64,000 bases of DNA, from contig OZ241831.1 in NCBI GenBank assembly GCA_965202585.1, positions 13,082,001-13,146,000 of the forward strand, read 5' to 3'. A program made the position numbers. Shown here piece after piece: positions 1 to 57,000 of this stretch; the stretch's first letter is position 1, and every line of letters begins with the position of its first letter. Origin of the DNA: Thalia democratica (taxonomy: Eukaryota).

Positions 1-3000
1 GTGATTTATATGATTGGCTCATTAGCAAAAAAACAAAATTTAAATATAAAAATTTTATGCTACTAATATAATCTCAAAAAATATAGTCTTAAATTAATTT
101 TATACTTTTCAGGCTTCCCATGCTGCAGTGTTTAACATCCCAGATTACGATTACTGGTGCAACCAGAACTTCTGTGTTGTGCCACATCAAAGCTACTACA
201 GCTACAAAGTCAACTTTAACCAAGCTTGGTGTCAGGGTCACTTCTACAGAGGCATCCTTTGCGAATTCCCAAAATGTTTCGTACCAAAAGGCTGTGAAGC
301 TGGTAAGCGTTTACGTGATAAAATACATTAAAACTTTCTCAGTCTTTAAAACCACATTGAAAGTTTTTAATTAATAAAGTAATATAGTTTTTTTATATAC
401 TTATATTTTTAAATTTATTCTAGTTAATAGGATATCTTGAACGTTAAAGTAAAAAAAGCCCATTATTTTGATTCAATTCTTGTCTTTCAAGCGCATTAAA
501 TGACAAAACGACATCATTAACAAATAAATAACTTAAGCTGTTTTTTTTATAACAGAGGAAAATGCCGCTGGAAGAATCAGTGAGATCGAACAGAAACTCG
601 CCCATGTCAGACAACAGATCTACGGTGAGTTGATGCAAGGACAAGAACAATGGATCAAGATGCTCATGGACTTGAACCACCAATACGTGTGCACCTTCAG
701 AGATTACTACCAACATGCTACCAACTGCGCATACTCCGAACTTGAAGGTAGATTGAAACAATACTCCGACGAGCTTGAAGGTTACAAACAACAGGGTATT
801 GCTCGCTACAACGGAAATGTTCAACAAATTATGCAAAAGATTGAGCAATACCATTGTCATCTTGTTGATCAGTAAGTAAAACTATTTTAAGCATGACTTT
901 TTACAAAAAAAAAAAAAGTTTGCCATTTTTAATATGTGATTCGCTTGCAAAGAAGCAGATTAGTTTTAAGTACAAAAACAGAATATTCATAAAAAGAGTT
1001 AAAACTTTAGTCATCACATAAGATGATATACAAATACCCAACTACTACATTTTAAGCTAGGAACTCAAAAACACAAAAAAATAATAAATTTAAAAAACAA
1101 CATGAACAATTTTAGAAAACATAAAATCAAACACGAATCAACAAAATTAGGTTAAAAGGATGTCTCCAAAAGCGTCAACACCAAATCGGTGGCATTCACG
1201 GTAAAATGGGTGAACGTGCCCAACATTATGTCCACGTTTACCATGAAAAACTCGATAAACTTCGTTCTAGAAAAATTACTTACGTCAGACACATCTTTGC
1301 TACTATCTACAGTTAGTGGATTTTATTATTATAGAAATTTCGATAAGTTTTAGCTAATTAAAGCTACATCATAAAAGACTATTAATCTAAACTAGAATAT
1401 CATACGTAGCTTTACCGACTAACATACAGCTATAAGTAGATGTATCAAAATAACAATCTATGTGTTTTACTAAGCTGCGTAAAAATTTATAGAAGGCAAA
1501 GATATGCCTTCCGAATTTGAAGATGCAATTAAGCAATGGGAAGAAGAAATGGTCAGATACGATCAGACTTTGGTCCAAGGTTTCTACACTAAAGTGATGG
1601 AAGCAGCACAAATGGTTGAAAAAGATTACAGATGTACTTATGTCTGTTACTTCAGGAACGGTTGCTACAGCATTGTAAGAAAACAATCAAAATGGTCAAT
1701 TTCATAAAATTAACATTTATTTTGCTTTTCAATACGTCATAATTACTTTTCCTTTTTAGCGGTGATCTTCCAGTTGCACCAAAATGCAAGTTTAACCTCA
1801 GTAGTGTTGGAGCTTTCTCAGCTGAATGGAACGGATGTGCTTACAAAACTCTTAAAACTTGTTCAAAGAGTAAATTTAGTTGTAATGCTTGTTTTTTGAA
1901 AACAAAAAAAGGAAAAATATATTTTCTTACCAAAATAATAAAGCTTTTATTTTTAAACGTTGTCATTAATGTTAACTCTTTAAGTATGTAAAAATGTAAA
2001 AATAACAATTTTAAAGCGAAAATGTATTTACAGAGGAACAAGAATCCGGTGGCGAGTTCCATTCTGAGAAATACGAAGAAGAAATTCACAGAAAATGCAA
2101 CGTATACACTCAAGAGCTCGCATACAAATACAGATCATGGAAGAAGCAAGTTGAAGAATGGTGTCATTTTGCTATCACTGGTCTTGAAGAACTCATTGTT
2201 TGCAAGATGCCAAAGGGATACAACGGGTATGTTTACTATTTAACTTTTTTTGATGTTTAACAAATAAAAAATTAAAACAGTCCTTTTAATGATTAAATTT
2301 TTTATTTATTTATTAAAGGTTAAGAGACGACTTTGATCAAATACTAAACAATATAAAAAGTAAATTTTTTGTTTGACATAAATATTTTAAACTTAAATAT
2401 TAAATACTTATGTTACTTAATAATTAAAGTATTTTTTTATTTTCGTTTGGTTTGGCAAATTTTTATTTAAAGGCCTAACTTTAAATACACTACAACTTAT
2501 AACTAGAAATCTAGTTTTGATATACTTTTTTAATGTTTTGTAATTTTTAAAATAAACTACAGCTTTTTTTTTCGGAAAAATATTATTAATTTCAGATGCC
2601 CACCAACCCAAGCTGAAATTGAAAACTTCCACAATTTGTTGAGAGCTCAAGCCAAGGAATGGATCGACCTCCATCAACATAAAATGCTCCACCAAATCGA
2701 GTGCGTCCACGAAAGAGTTCACGTTCGCATCTTGCAATGGAAAACTCATGCTGACCAGATGATCCACAAAGTTAAAGCCAACTTCCACCAGTGCATGTCC
2801 GGCAGACAGTCAAAGATCGACGCTTACATCAAGGGACTCTACAACAAACGCGTCCATCAACGTGCTGCCATCATCAAGACTTTGACCCACGTTAGTTTGA
2901 ATTTAATGTTGTATAAAAATCAGTTTGAAAGGTGTTTACGTACAAGCATGCAAGCCTATAAAATCAAAACATTGTTTAATGTAGAATGAAATATCAAGGA

Positions 3001-54000: not shown

Positions 54001-57000
54001 TTATTTTATTTTTTTTGTAATAGAAAAAAAGGGAATATTAATTTGTTTTAGAGATCTAAAAGATATGTTACTAATTTCAGATGCCCACCGACTCAAGCTG
54101 AAATTGAAAACTTCCACAATTTGTTGAGAGCTCAAGCCAAGGAATGGATCGACCTCCATCAACATAAAATGCTCCACCAAATCGAGTGCGTCCACGAAAG
54201 AGTTCACGTTCGCATCTTGCAATGGAAAACTCATGCTGACCAGATGATCCACAAAGTGAAAGCCAACTTCCACCAGTGCATGTCCGGCAGACAGTCAAAG
54301 ATCGACGCTTACATCAAGGGACTCTACAACAAACGCATCCATCAACGTGCTTCCATCATCAAGACTTTGACCCACGTTAGTTTGAGTTTATGAGTTTGAA
54401 GCTTACATAAATTGCTACTTTTTTTTTTGTTTTAATTACAACGATTTTTGAATTATATCACTTTGAAATCAGTTCCTGGTATTTCCTAGGTTGTTAAAAA
54501 AATATTTACAGTATTAATTTAAGTATACTCCATGAACTGTATAGAAATTAATGCAATTTTTAAAGTACTAGACTTGTAAAGCGTAAAATAGAAAAATCCT
54601 TAAATGTAAGTTTGAAGAGTCGGTATAAAATACCAGACTCTTTAAACCTGAATAAAATATACATTAAACTTTTACAAACTTCCAACCTAAAATGTGAAAT
54701 ACAAACCATATGTATTTGTAAACTAAAGTCAATTATCTATATTTCTTCTTTACAGCGTGCCCATTGCCACTTGGTCGCATTTGACAAGTTCTTCTCCAGC
54801 GTTTTCGGTGAAAACCCAAACCAACTCGTACTCAACCTGAGAACTCATTACCACGAATGCGTTGACACTAAAGTGAAGAAAATTATTGAAAAGTTCGATT
54901 ACTTCCACCACTACTACGAGCCAAGATTGATCATGCACTACTGCTGCTGCTTCAAATGTAACGCCAAGTTCACCTGTCCATCGTTCAGACTCATGTGCAA
55001 ATGGAACTTCTGTCCACCATCAGTTCATTCATGTACCTTCCGTACTTGTTAGGTAAGTATTCTTTATATTATTTTAATATTTTTTAATAAGTAGTTATTA
55101 ATATGACAACGAATTAAAGTGTTTTCTAAAATCTTAATCATTTATAATAGTTTTTAAGATTCTAAATACATATGTTAGTTTTGTATCAATATAGTTAATT
55201 TCTTGTAGTTAGGTTAAAGATTGATTAATTATTATAAAACCTTAAAAACTGAAAAAAACCATAGTTTTATTATTTATTTACCACGTATAAATTACTTTTA
55301 GAAATAGGTTCTGTTTTTATTATTACAATGATTTTTTTTCAGGTTTTAGCTCAAGCGAAAAAGTATGTGTCAAACTTATCAATAAAGTATATTGTTATGT
55401 AATTTTTACTCATCAATAAACTATAAAACTATTATTATAAAAAAAAATGTTTTGTGTTGTGTTAATCACTAAACTAAGTTTTAGCAGCAACTAATTTTAA
55501 AGAACTATATAAATTTTTAAAGAATTAAAAAAATCCTATTTAATTTATTTTAAGGTAAACTATAACTATGTTATAAAGTAAGTTAAACCACTAATGTTGT
55601 TTATTGAGTTTTATCAACCAGTTAACTTAAACGTGAATTTTATTTAAAATGCCGTATACATCAAGCATAATGTATAAACAACTTAAATGCAAACTATAGC
55701 AGTAAAATAACTAAGTTTAAATCAAACTTAACCGTTTACAGTTTGTTTTCATTAAAGTGTTAAAACGATTACAACTAGTAATAGGTCTCCAAAAATATAC
55801 ATTCTTAAAAGGTATTCTTTAAAGCTTTTTACATACACTAAAAACTTATAATTATTCGTATGTTATATTTGTTCGAAAAAATTACTTGAAGTCTATTGAT
55901 TGAGTTTTTATACTTAAGTTTAATTTTACATAATATGTAAATTTAATTAAATTTTTCTTAAGTAAAAACTAAGCAGTTCATCATTTCTTTTAATTTAAAA
56001 ATAATTGGTTTTTGATCAGTTCTTATAGATAGATAGCAAAAAAACTTCCTAAATTTAAATAAATAACTATTTAAAAACATGTAAATATGAACTATAAAAG
56101 AATTACAAATAGAAAAATAGCTCAAACTAATTAATGTTTAATCAATTGTTTTAGATATCTTAGAACAGTATAATATTTAGACTTAAAAAAAACTAAAAAA
56201 AATATTAGTTGTTAAATTAATAAGTTGATATACTTGATTCATTTTTAAAAAACAAGTATATTTAGTTAAGTTTTTCTAAAAAAGGATGAAAGGTCGACTA
56301 TAAAAATTAGTTCGAGAAACCCTGATATAGAGCATACTTTTTATAATACGTTTAAATTTTATCCTTTTAAGGATATTACATTTTCGAAACAATTTTCTTA
56401 ATGAAATTGAATACTTGTTCGTTTAAAAGAGTTTTAATAATTTTAATATCTATTTTACTTAAGTTTTCAACATAGTAACATGTCATAAAACTTTAATAGT
56501 GACTAAGATAATGTTTTTATCGTGTAATTATATCACTTTTTGCAAAGAAACAAGCATTAAACCGTTGGTTTGAAAGTTATTTACAACAAGTTTCACTTAA
56601 AATATCTTTTAGACGTTTTAAATTATTTTAGAAAAATTAGTCGAAACGAATAGATTTTTCGGTGAAAATTCAATAGTCGTATATTTAAATTTTAGGTATT
56701 AAGTAAATTAAATTTTTAAAGTTTATACTTTTTACATTAAAATGAGAAATTATTAAAACTAACGTACCGAAAAAAGAAGTTTTCTTATGTTTCTTTAGTT
56801 TTAATATAAAATATAAAATATAAACAAACATCTGTTAATTAGAACATTTCTTTTTTTCTAAAGGTCTAAAGCAATAAAAGACGAGTATAAAATATTTTTG
56901 TGAGAAAATGACAAAGTAATTATTACGGCTTTTTTGTTAGCTGAACAAATAAGATAAGATTTAATGTTCCCATGATTTTTTGCTCGTTTAAATTTGCCCA

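What the first reader, a model, noticed from the sequence alone, without database searches (positions are those of the whole stretch)
113..55052. Exons homogenised, introns mosaic: signature of gene conversion among inverted copies
Seen: coding exons differ by only scattered bases, yet introns group the copies inconsistently. Intron 1 3' end groups A,B,C; intron 2 groups A,C versus B,D; intron 3 groups A,B,D,E; intron 7 3' end groups C,E; intron 8 3' end groups A,B,E versus C,D; several introns are unalignable. The spacers alone would predict A~C and B~D. Inference: repeated ectopic conversion or recombination, possibly aided by fold-back pairing of inverted neighbours as in palindromic gene arrays.
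Basis: partly seen in the sequence, partly recalled or inferred. Interest (0 to 1): 0.65.

Follow-up and report, generated by a model that had tools for sequence, protein, structure and literature searches.

The report
Gene conversion among five inverted paralogues
Five neighbouring copies of an unnamed secreted-protein gene keep almost identical coding exons while their introns have drifted apart in a patchwork, which is the known footprint of copies overwriting one another and an ordinary process seen here in a very clean example.

Summary
The window holds five copies (A-E) of a 9-exon, 599-codon gene in alternating orientation. Four are intact. C has an in-frame stop and lacks exon 7. Exons are 92-100% identical in every pair (dS 0.06-0.15). 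By contrast, 36 of 68 intron pair comparisons are no better than shuffled sequence, and the closest pair changes from intron to intron. A single tree is rejected (PHI: 0 of 2000 permutations). Exon synonymous divergence barely depends on whether the flanking introns are alignable (pS 0.069 against 0.112). Copy A is a C-like backbone carrying a B-like patch of about 2.9 kb.

The best explanation is DNA-templated interlocus gene conversion with homology-limited tracts. Exons and the one short intron (65-70 nt) stay homogenised, while the long introns have escaped. Purifying selection and codon bias (ENC about 39) contribute. The same pattern has been described and modelled in print for other gene families.

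Copies in direct orientation have also exchanged sequence, arm identity is at most 90%, and the spacers are longer than the arms.

The protein belongs to an unnamed family (no Pfam, PDB or source name). Novelty: a new member of a known kind. Interest is modest.

The parts
1..3491 (+). Copy A (window starts inside intron 1; exons 2-9 present, intact reading frame)
   Evidence: Exons x2 113-302, x3 556-871, x4 1151-1311, x5 1493-1694, x6 1760-1869, x7 2034-2226, x8 2596-2890, x9 3195-3491 (TAG). All have AG/GT borders and mutually consistent phases.
16021..19857 (-). Copy B, complete 9-exon gene, intact
   Evidence: x1 19857-19822, x2 19366-19177, x3 18923-18608, x4 18323-18163, x5 17982-17781, x6 17711-17602, x7 17447-17255, x8 16903-16609, x9 16317-16021. 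There are 12 private changes clustered in x8.
25546..29072 (+). Copy C, defective copy (one in-frame stop; one exon missing)
   Evidence: x1-x6, x8 and x9 are recognisable. There is one in-frame stop in x4. x7 (193 nt, not a multiple of 3) is absent and unrelated sequence stands in its place.
42834..46589 (-). Copy D, complete 9-exon gene, intact
   Evidence: x1 46589-46554, x2 46253-46064, x3 45766-45451, x4 45178-45018, x5 44835-44634, x6 44563-44454, x7 44290-44098, x8 43720-43426, x9 43130-42834.
51184..55052 (+). Copy E, complete 9-exon gene, intact
   Evidence: x1 51184-51219, x2 51532-51721, x3 51923-52238, x4 52509-52669, x5 52960-53161, x6 53232-53341, x7 53511-53703, x8 54081-54375, x9 54756-55052.
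19922..19931 (-). TATA-box motif of copy B
   Evidence: The 10-nt motif occurs 5 times in the window against 0.65 expected. Four occurrences lie 65 nt upstream of the ATGs of B, C, D and E. It sits inside an upstream block conserved in all four copies.
25472..25481 (+). TATA-box motif of copy C
46654..46663 (-). TATA-box motif of copy D
51110..51119 (+). TATA-box motif of copy E
872..3750 (+). B-type patch inside copy A (intron 3 to about 260 nt past the stop)
   Evidence: A is C-like in i1/i2 (97% and 94%), B-like from i3 to 3' flank +260 (82-91%, with C at 27-64%), then C-like again (69% against 40%). The A-B HSP 1-3750 / 19476-15758 is 90.4%.
1695..1759 (+). Short intron 5 of copy A, the only intron alignable in all 10 pairs
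   Evidence: Length 65-70 nt. Other copies: B 17780-17712, C 27604-27673, D 44633-44564, E 53162-53231. Pairwise identity is 84-93%. Mean matches are 0.86 against 0.73 for the 35-nt edges of long introns with unrelated interiors.
3751..15757 (.). Tail-to-tail spacer between A and B
   Evidence: Colinear, in the same orientation, with the C-D spacer: 4300-4843~38089-38631 (93.6%), 9580-10310~38621-39352 (83.7%), 12418-13184~39537-40306 (88.5%), 13507-16322~40294-43135 (92.1%).
29908..42568 (.). Tail-to-tail spacer between C and D
   Evidence: Colinear with the A-B spacer. It carries extra mobile-element material.
19948..25455 (.). Head-to-head spacer between B and C
   Evidence: B-C inverted arms 18600-19947 / 26799-25456 are 86.6% identical.
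46858..50916 (.). Head-to-head spacer between D and E
   Evidence: D-E inverted arms 46047-46857 / 51738-50917 are 78% identical.

Best explanation
The window carries two and a half inverted-pair modules, [A> <B] [C> <D] [E>, of one gene. The gene has 9 exons and 599 codons, with a TATA box, a signal-peptide start, small Cys-rich ends and very long helices, and it belongs to an unnamed family.

The array grew by duplication of a whole inverted-pair module. This is shown by the colinear spacers.

Since then, DNA-templated, non-reciprocal interlocus gene conversion has repeatedly copied stretches between copies, in inverted and in direct relative orientation. This step is inferred.

Tracts need matching sequence to start and to extend. 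Selection on the protein keeps the exons alike, so the exons remain convertible, and so does the 65-70-nt intron 5 that lies between two exons. These stay within dS 0.06-0.15. The longer introns (154-455 nt) have diverged past the point where tracts can cross them, and they now preserve older, discordant histories. This step is also inferred.

Occasional long tracts give the mosaic groupings. Examples are the B-type patch of about 2.9 kb in A, and the intron 1 plus upstream block shared by the head-to-head neighbours B and C.

Purifying selection and codon bias add to exon similarity but do not account for it alone.
For: (1) Same genes, two histories. Exons are 92-100% identical in all pairs, while 36 of 68 intron pair comparisons are <=69% matches, the maximum of 230 shuffled controls.

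(2) Internal calibration. Where flanking introns are alignable on both sides, pS=0.069 and the flanks differ by 13.5%. Where they are unalignable on both sides, pS is only 0.112 (0.083 without C), which predicts introns 78-84% identical. Those introns are at the unrelated baseline.

(3) Intron lengths are conserved although the sequence is saturated. Intron 3 is 268-284 nt and intron 4 is 180-182 nt in four copies, yet C has no local match to any other copy. This argues for old divergence and against turnover by large indels.

(4) Incongruence is clustered. PHI was reached by 0 of 2000 permutations, and 9 of 10 pairs have run-length p<=0.001, in different places for different pairs.

(5) History against similarity. 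The spacers say A~C and B~D. Even so, A-B is 90% identical over 3.78 kb including introns 3-8, while the equivalent pair C-D is at baseline in introns 2, 3, 4 and 8.

(6) Patch signature in A: C-like, then B-like, then C-like. The A-B and C-D spacers keep the same orientation, so there has been no net crossover or inversion.

(7) Intron 5 is homogenised in all 10 pairs, beyond the splice-edge control (0.86 against 0.73). Pairwise blocks also cross exon-intron borders: C-E 430 nt at 97.4% spans the 3' end of intron 7 plus x8, and C-E 439 nt spans x5-i5-x6 plus 48 nt of intron 6. Both observations require a genomic DNA donor.

(8) In the exons, 24 informative sites fall on all 10 possible splits, and the best compatible pair of splits covers 8 of 24.

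(9) The same pattern and mechanism are modelled in print: long introns escape, and exons plus short introns stay homogenised (preprint 10.1101/2025.10.29.685298, passages read; PMC3966223 section 4.2, passages read).
Against: Exon-only evidence for recombination is moderate. Under the most conservative coincidence model (330 mutable sites, always the same target base), 15 informative sites arise by chance against 24 observed. Spatial clustering within the exons is weak (PHI p=0.03 at w=3 and 0.54 at w=10).

Codon bias is strong in some codon families (TAC:TAT 36:2; ENC about 39) and must lower dS to some extent.

Splice-site edges of unrelated introns are themselves at 0.73, above baseline, so part of intron 5's conservation may be functional.

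There is no GC rise in intron 5 (0.16-0.22), so there is no biased-conversion footprint.

No tract is younger than about 2-4% divergence outside the exons, so ongoing conversion is not shown.

Donor direction is inferred, not shown.

Runs inside x7 are inflated by C's filler sequence.

No sister genome, population data or reads were available.
Confidence: 0.7

Rival explanations
1. RNA/cDNA-templated conversion. Reverse-transcribed mRNA of one copy serves as the donor, so only exon sequence is overwritten and introns are never touched.
For: dS is far below intron divergence for most pairs, which is the criterion used for fungal ribosomal-protein genes in PMC6993855 (passages read). All-copy similarity ends 0-21 nt from the splice sites. 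Codon bias and a TATA promoter suggest high expression, which that paper links to mRNA-mediated conversion.
Against: Intron 5 is homogenised in all 10 pairs. Several high-identity pairwise blocks run from an exon into an intron. All 8 introns are kept in A, B, D and E. No copy shows a precise intron loss, since C lacks an exon together with parts of its flanking introns and not an intron alone. Long tracts such as the A-B patch include introns.
Confidence: 0.1
2. No conversion. The copies are old duplicates whose exons are held alike by purifying selection plus codon-usage selection. The intron groupings reflect staggered duplications and fast intron decay.
For: dN/dS is 0.05-0.18. ENC is 38.8-39.5, with extreme preference in some families. 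Module duplication explains A~C and B~D. Under the most conservative setting, coincidence could give 15 of the 24 informative exon sites.
Against: The internal calibration already includes codon bias, and unshared introns are still far more diverged than pS predicts. A simple GC3-against-intron-GC estimate gives S of about 1.2 and a synonymous rate of about 1.1x neutral (the mutation-selection-drift formula is recalled, not taken from a tool). A-B are closer than A-C in the exons and in introns 3-8, against the duplication order read from the spacers. No single tree, even with copy labels permuted per intron, gives 96% for one pair with all other pairs at baseline in intron 2 but three copies at about 90% in introns 3, 4 and 6.
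Confidence: 0.1
3. Reciprocal ectopic recombination instead of conversion. This means unequal crossing-over between direct copies, or crossovers between inverted copies, creating chimeric genes.
For: Chimeric copies exist. The module duplication itself implies unequal exchange at some time.
Against: The B-type patch in A is flanked on both sides by C-like backbone, and B kept its own version, so the exchange was non-reciprocal. The A-B and C-D spacers are colinear in the same orientation, so there has been no net inversion. By my reading, copy E switches type at least 6 times within 3.5 kb, which would need many crossovers.
Confidence: 0.06
4. Assembly artefact. The assembler switched between copies inside identical exon stretches and produced false combinations of introns.
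For: The switch points coincide with exons. No reads could be examined.
Against: The longest exact matches between copies are only 132-299 nt, all in exon 3. The window is 64 kb without any N. Permuting segments cannot create the exon/intron divergence contrast or the different depth structure of different introns. Type switches also occur inside introns at 79-98% identity, not at identity.
Confidence: 0.04

Closest known systems
Interlocus gene conversion giving 'mosaic divergence' in the tandem HMA4 paralogues of Arabidopsis halleri (preprint 10.1101/2025.10.29.685298; passages read)
   Same: Coding exons and short introns stay alike while long introns escape and keep the duplication signal. 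The explanation is divergence-dependent conversion combined with purifying selection.
   Different: The HMA4 copies are head-to-tail and young (long-intron divergence <=6.3%). Here the copies alternate in orientation, most long introns are at the unrelated baseline, there are five copies, and one of them is defective.
Caenorhabditis paralogue conversion, including the inverted hsp16 modules (review PMC3966223; passages of sections 2, 4.2 and 4.3 read)
   Same: An inverted gene pair is duplicated as a module. Conversion occurs in either orientation, diverged introns impede tracts, and compact introns are swept along.
   Different: The hsp16 modules are 100% identical over 1.9 kb according to that review. 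Here the best long block is 96% (878 nt), and the introns are longer and mostly escaped.
BMP8A/BMP8B and other long-lived converting mammalian pairs (PMC2720389; passages read)
   Same: An inverted pair with part of the gene evolving in concert and part diverging. Conversion fragments span exons and introns.
   Different: That paper reports a GC rise in the converted parts, introns included. Here the co-homogenised intron 5 shows none (GC 0.16-0.22).
cDNA-donor conversion of fungal ribosomal-protein duplicates (PMC6993855; passages read)
   Same: dS is much lower than intron divergence, and the genes look highly expressed.
   Different: Here one intron and several intron edges are co-homogenised, and long tracts include introns, so a genomic DNA donor is required for at least part of the exchange.
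Arm-to-arm conversion in sex-chromosome palindromes (PMC4772468, search listing and start of abstract only; details recalled)
   Same: Inverted neighbouring copies, and intrachromosomal conversion.
   Different: As I recall, palindrome arms are near-identical along their whole length, non-coding DNA included. Here the best arm identity is 90%, non-coding parts are mostly unalignable, and the spacers exceed the arms.

Membership tests
Interlocus gene conversion / concerted evolution | Paralogues are more alike in some segments than the duplication order allows | tested here: met
   The spacers give A~C and B~D. A-B is nonetheless 82-91% identical in introns 3-8, where A-C is 27-58%, and dS(AB) of 0.064 is below dS(AC) of 0.111.
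Interlocus gene conversion / concerted evolution | Adjacent segments support incompatible trees, with spatial clustering beyond chance | tested here: met
   PHI was reached by 0 of 2000 permutations and 23,565 of 43,660 site pairs are incompatible. The run-length test gives p<=0.001 in 9 of 10 pairs.
Interlocus gene conversion / concerted evolution | Non-reciprocal patch: donor-type sequence flanked on both sides by recipient backbone, with the donor unchanged | tested here: met
   Copy A reads C-like, then B-like, then C-like, while B remains D-like in introns 3-6 and in the 3' flank.
Interlocus gene conversion / concerted evolution | Paralogues cluster by species rather than by position in cross-species comparison | not testable with these tools
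   No eukaryotic genome collection was available. P0001 and its relatives are proteins without genomic context.
Interlocus gene conversion / concerted evolution | Polymorphisms shared between paralogues within a population | not testable with these tools
   A single sequence only.
Palindrome with arm-to-arm conversion | Inverted orientation of adjacent copies | tested here: met
   The orientations run A+ B- C+ D- E+.
Palindrome with arm-to-arm conversion | Near-identity along the whole arms, non-coding DNA included | tested here: not met
   Best arm identity is 90.4% (A-B). C-D introns 2, 3, 4 and 8 are at 62-66%, which is the baseline.
Palindrome with arm-to-arm conversion | Arms long relative to the spacer | tested here: not met
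   The arms are about 0.5-3.8 kb and the spacers 5.5-12.7 kb.
cDNA-templated conversion | dS far below intron divergence | tested here: met
cDNA-templated conversion | Homogenisation never includes intron sequence | tested here: not met
   Intron 5 is alignable in 10 of 10 pairs at 84-93%. Blocks also cross exon-intron borders.
cDNA-templated conversion | Precise intron loss in some copies | tested here: not met
   0 of 5 copies lacks an intron precisely.
Pfam PF01442 Apolipoprotein A1/A4/E | Score at or above the gathering cut-off (90 bits) | tested here: not met
   22.4 bits for P0001 and 13.4 bits for exon 3 alone. No PDB sequence hit at E<0.2. 0 of 264 fold matches at E<=0.001.
Unnamed secreted long-helix family (P0001, P0104, P0105, P0002 and others) | Full-length homology with conserved cysteines | tested here: met
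   P0001 is 599 aa, is 96% identical over exon 3, and reads through all 8 predicted junctions. There are 102 representative clusters at E<=1e-3 and 24 at <=1e-30. C185, C282, C286, C469 and C566 are invariant in 14 sequences.

The most novel reading that the evidence does not exclude
Part of the exon-limited homogenisation is templated by spliced RNA or cDNA, without loss of introns, in a multi-exon, apparently highly expressed secreted-protein family. It would act alongside ordinary DNA-templated tracts. This would explain why exons bracketed on both sides by unrelated introns are hardly more diverged at synonymous sites than exons bracketed by alignable introns, and why similarity ends within 0-21 nt of the splice sites.
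Probability: 0.1. Interest if true: 0.65.

Novelty: new member of a known kind. Interest (0 to 1): 0.3.

Why it matters
It is a compact case of concerted evolution with a built-in control. Within 64 kb the spacers record the duplication order, the long introns record older lineages, and the exons record neither. Trees built from the coding sequence of this family would therefore mislead about its history, and copy-specific assays have to target introns or flanks.

The case agrees with one prediction of the published divergence-penalty model: the single short intron behaves like the exons and the long introns escape.

The gene itself belongs to a sizeable family that no source names. Its TATA box, signal peptide, strong codon bias and several near-identical copies suggest an abundant secreted product for which dosage may be selected.

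A defective copy (C) still shares high-identity blocks with intact copies, for example 97.4% over 430 nt with E. It may therefore both receive sequence from its neighbours and pass its lesions to them.

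Tried and rejected
- Pfam on the 8 exon peptides of A found none of 8 at a gathering score. Pfam and PDB sequence searches on P0001 found nothing above cut-off.
- The ESM Atlas gave no usable hit.
- The PDB fold search gave 0 of 264 matches at E<=0.001.
- Three word-indexed protein searches returned 1, 3 and 7 proteins, none with a source name.
- tRNA scan: 0 genes. Rfam: 0 matches.
- I looked for a cryptic sixth or divergent family member in the window. All 142 tblastn hits of P0001, P0104, P0105 and P0002 fall inside the five copies. 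The fifth TATA-like motif at 62569 is followed by nothing recognisable.
- I looked for a donor of B's exon-8 cluster. None of the 109 held proteins has B's variant.
- GC-biased conversion: no GC rise in intron 5.
- My first exon map had only 7 blocks. It was rejected because blocks 5 and 6 could not be joined in phase, and this led to exon 7.
The phage, plasmid and E. coli collections are irrelevant. Supplementary files were not requested.
- The source organism was not determined. I do not take the contig for human, given 27.5% GC, introns of 65-455 nt and compact genes.

Full report
WHAT IS THERE

The window is 64,000 bases, 27.5% G+C, with no N. I do not take it for human. A nucleotide self-comparison finds five copies of a unit of about 3.7 kb in alternating orientation: A 1-3750 (+), B 15758-19476 (-), C 25924-29907 (+), D 42569-46297 (-), E 51483-55087 (+).

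Aligning the five units shows blocks of 90-100% invariant columns separated by poorly conserved stretches. Every block is bordered by AG and GT. Seven blocks were obvious. Blocks 5 and 6 could not be joined in phase, which predicted one more exon, and it is present in A, B, D and E but not in C. A first exon lies upstream of B, C, D and E. It consists of ATG plus 11 further codons of a hydrophobic signal-peptide start and ends at a GTAAGT donor, and a TATA motif sits 65 nt before the ATG.

The model therefore has 9 exons, 8 introns and 599 codons plus the stop, with mutually consistent phases. The finding's bounds (113 and 55052) are the first base of exon 2 of A and the last base of E's stop codon.

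Window-derived searches were made exon by exon and the joined step was left out. The splice model was tested instead against a database protein, P0001. It is 599 aa, comes from a 1854-nt contig, and is 96% identical over exon 3. It reads through all eight predicted junctions.

Copy C is defective, with one in-frame stop in exon 4 and exon 7 missing. A, B, D and E are open throughout. A's exon 1 lies outside the window.

Exons are 92-100% identical in all pairs, and 97 of 1571 aligned exon sites vary.

Intron similarity, as matches relative to the longer sequence, runs from 95% (A-C, intron 2) to 48%. Unrelated controls under the same scoring give 59.7±5.0 (maximum 68.7; 230 alignments with one partner shuffled) and 53.8±6.6 (160 alignments of different introns against each other). 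By my count, 36 of 68 intron pair comparisons are at or below 69%.

Local alignments give discrete intron types:
- i1: {A,B,C}{D}{E}
- i2: {A,C at 96%}{B}{D}{E}
- i3: {A,B,D at 87-91%, E at 77-85%}{C}
- i4: {A,B,D}{C}{E}
- i5: all ten pairs align, at 84-93%
- i6: {A,B,D}{E}
- i7: {A,B; the middle of E}{D}, and the 3' 120 nt of C matches E at 98%
- i8: {A,B; part of C}{D}{E}, and the last 48-82 nt of E match A and B at 93-98%

Two of its groupings are weak: B with D in intron 2 (25 + 16 nt) and C with D at the end of intron 8 (18 nt).

A 60-column sliding map shows all five copies grouping in every exon window, and the grouping collapses within one window of each border. Measured directly, all-copy similarity ends 0-21 nt from the splice sites.

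ONE TREE DOES NOT FIT

Of 296 informative gap-free sites, 23,565 of 43,660 pairs fail the four-gamete test. Neighbouring sites are far more compatible than distant ones (PHI 0.324 against 0.540; reached by 0 of 2000 permutations). A run-length test of the Sawyer type gives p<=0.001 for 9 of 10 pairs and 0.028 for B-C, with the long runs in different places for different pairs. Runs inside exon 7 are inflated by C's filler.

Within the exons alone, 24 informative sites fall on all 10 possible splits, and the best compatible pair of splits covers 8. Coincident mutation would give 2-10 such sites under realistic settings. Under the most conservative setting it would give 15, and clustering within exons is weak (p=0.03 at w=3, 0.54 at w=10). 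Exon-only evidence is therefore moderate.

THE HISTORY THE SPACERS TELL

The tail-to-tail spacers A-B and C-D are colinear, in the same orientation, at 81-94% identity, apart from insertions private to one or the other. So [A> <B] and [C> <D] are copies of one inverted-pair module, and E begins a third. A local tblastn with four family proteins finds no further member in the window, since all 142 hits lie inside the five copies.

EXONS AND INTRONS HAVE DIFFERENT HISTORIES

dS is 0.064-0.147 in all ten pairs, dN is 0.004-0.017, and dN/dS is 0.05-0.18.

The sharpest test is internal. For exons whose 80-nt intron flanks are alignable on both sides, pS=0.069 (11 comparisons) and shared flanks differ by 13.5% on average. 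For exons whose flanks are unalignable on both sides, pS=0.112 (22 comparisons), or 0.083 without C (11 comparisons). By the same ratio, those introns should be 78-84% identical. They are at the unrelated baseline. This calibration already contains whatever codon bias does.

Codon bias is real (ENC 38.8-39.5; TAC:TAT 36:2; GC3 0.47-0.48 against intron GC 0.21-0.23). A simple mutation-selection-drift estimate from the two GC values gives S of about 1.2 and a synonymous rate of about 1.1x neutral. The formula is recalled, and for the most biased codon families the reduction would be larger.

Intron lengths are conserved while the sequence is not. Intron 3 is 268-284 nt and intron 4 is 180-182 nt in four copies, yet C matches nothing there. 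This points to old divergence and not to replacement by large indels.

DIRECT SIGNS OF NON-RECIPROCAL EXCHANGE

Against the spacer history, A and B are 90.4% identical over 3.78 kb, introns included. The equivalent pair C-D is at baseline in introns 2, 3, 4 and 8.

Segment by segment, A is C-like in introns 1-2 (97% and 94%). It is B-like from intron 3 to about 260 nt past the stop (82-91%, with C at 27-64%), and C-like again further 3' (69% against 40%). B keeps its D-like character in introns 3-6 and in its 3' flank. That is a donor-type patch of about 2.9 kb inside a recipient backbone. Because the two spacers keep the same orientation, no net crossover between inverted copies has occurred.

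The head-to-head neighbours B and C share the whole of intron 1 and the upstream region (84-87%), although their supposed module counterparts share only the first 30-57 nt of that intron.

Copies in direct orientation have exchanged too. C-E share 430 nt at 97.4% (3' end of intron 7 plus exon 8), 439 nt at 91.6% (x5-i5-x6 and 48 nt beyond) and 364 nt at 95.1% (exon 3 with short flanks).

MECHANISM

The best reading is DNA-templated interlocus gene conversion whose tracts are limited by homology. Selection keeps exons alike, so exons remain substrates. Long introns, once diverged, stop tracts and escape.

The one short intron (65-70 nt) behaves like the exons. It averages 0.86 matches (0.80-0.91 in 10 of 10 pairs), against 0.73 for the 35-nt edges of long introns with unrelated interiors (39 pairs, of which 7 reach 0.80). 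This is what a published model predicts (preprint 10.1101/2025.10.29.685298, passages of Results and Discussion read). It also matches what a review of Caenorhabditis paralogues describes (PMC3966223, passages of sections 2, 4.2 and 4.3 read). The idea of a minimal length of identity for recombination is recalled, not tested.

The main mechanistic rival is a cDNA donor, argued for fungal ribosomal-protein genes from the same dS-against-intron contrast (PMC6993855, passages read). It cannot explain intron 5, the blocks that cross exon-intron borders, the long tracts that include introns, or the absence of any precise intron loss. It could still contribute.

Unlike the mammalian pairs in PMC2720389 (passages read), there is no GC rise in the co-homogenised intron (0.16-0.22).

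An assembly artefact is unlikely. The longest exact matches between copies are 132-299 nt, all in exon 3, and shuffling segments could not create the divergence contrast. No reads could be checked.

THE FOLD-BACK / PALINDROME CLAUSE

Inverted orientation is met. The other features I recall as defining converting palindromes are not met. Best arm identity is 90%, most non-coding arm sequence is unalignable, and the spacers of 5.5-12.7 kb exceed the arms. Exchange is seen with partners in both orientations, so the sequence gives no reason to invoke a special fold-back route.

THE PROTEIN

None of the 8 exon peptides, and nothing in P0001, reaches a Pfam cut-off. The best hit is Apolipoprotein A1/A4/E at 22.4 bits against 90. 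There is no PDB sequence match below E=0.2.

An exhaustive HMMER search finds 102 representative clusters at E<=1e-3 and 24 at <=1e-30. Full-length members of 585-650 aa are 21-37% identical.

An AlphaFold model of P0001 built with 14 family sequences is confident (mean pLDDT 86.7, pTM 0.46). It consists of very long helices (for example 135-233 and 408-518) with small Cys-rich ends. 0 of 264 PDB fold matches reach E<=0.001, and the top ones are generic long-helix bundles. The function is unknown. The signal peptide, TATA box, codon bias and multiple near-identical copies suggest an abundant secreted product, which is an inference.

VERDICT

The phenomenon is known and modelled, so this is a clean new instance in an unnamed family.

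Supplementary tables S5, S6 and S9 and figure S2 of PMC6993855, and table S1 and data file S1 of the preprint, are cited in the passages I read and may hold detail on intron behaviour that I did not see.

Noticed in passing
window 25546-29072 (+): Copy C is a defective copy, with one in-frame stop and one exon absent. Its remaining exons are still 92-98% identical to the intact copies, and it shares a 97.4% block of 430 nt with E. By eye, only about 9 of its 26 private exon changes alter the protein, which suggests recent inactivation or continued refreshment by conversion.
   Followed up: partly
window 16609-16903 (-), exon 8 of copy B: 12 private substitutions are clustered within about 26 nt and change seven consecutive residues, unlike the scattered differences elsewhere. 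None of the 109 held family proteins has this variant, and P0104 is only loosely similar there. The cluster may be a short tract from a paralogue outside the window, or a complex mutation.
   Followed up: partly
window 34721-37693: An element of about 3 kb whose two ends are inverted arrays (about 580 nt each) of 52-nt tandem subrepeats, with arms 90-93% complementary. It resembles foldback-type transposons (recalled). It is present in the C-D spacer only.
   Followed up: partly
window 4842-9526: A 4.7-kb insertion bounded by 306-nt inverted repeats that are 99% complementary, absent from the colinear C-D spacer. Inside it, a second inverted pair (5140-5463 / 5670-5993, 98%) overlaps a 153-aa ORF (5134-5595, -) with a GIY-YIG nuclease domain at 23.7 bits against a 22.6 cut-off. 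A C-rich 30-nt tandem repeat lies at 9098-9166.
   Followed up: partly
window 32041-32367 (-): An ORF fragment with a hAT-family transposase dimerisation domain, 33.7 bits against a 21.4 cut-off. It is probably a remnant in the C-D spacer.
   Followed up: no
window 61651-62553 (-) and 62569-62578 (+): A 300-aa ORF, rich in Gln and His and with a HHHHH run, has no Pfam match. A fifth exact copy of the 10-nt TATA motif lies just beside its start on the other strand and is followed by nothing recognisable.
   Followed up: partly
window 21080-21472, 47045-47290, 48890-49282; also 21462-21788 / 22962-23290: A dispersed repeat of about 250-400 nt (76-77% identical) occurs in both head-to-head spacers, in two orientations in the D-E spacer. 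A separate inverted pair that is 93% identical lies in the B-C spacer.
   Followed up: no
window 1695-1700 (+), donor of intron 5 in copy A: Copy A has a 5-nt deletion at the start of intron 5. Its donor reads GTCAAT where the other copies read GTAAGA or GTAAAT, so it may be a weaker splice site.
   Followed up: no
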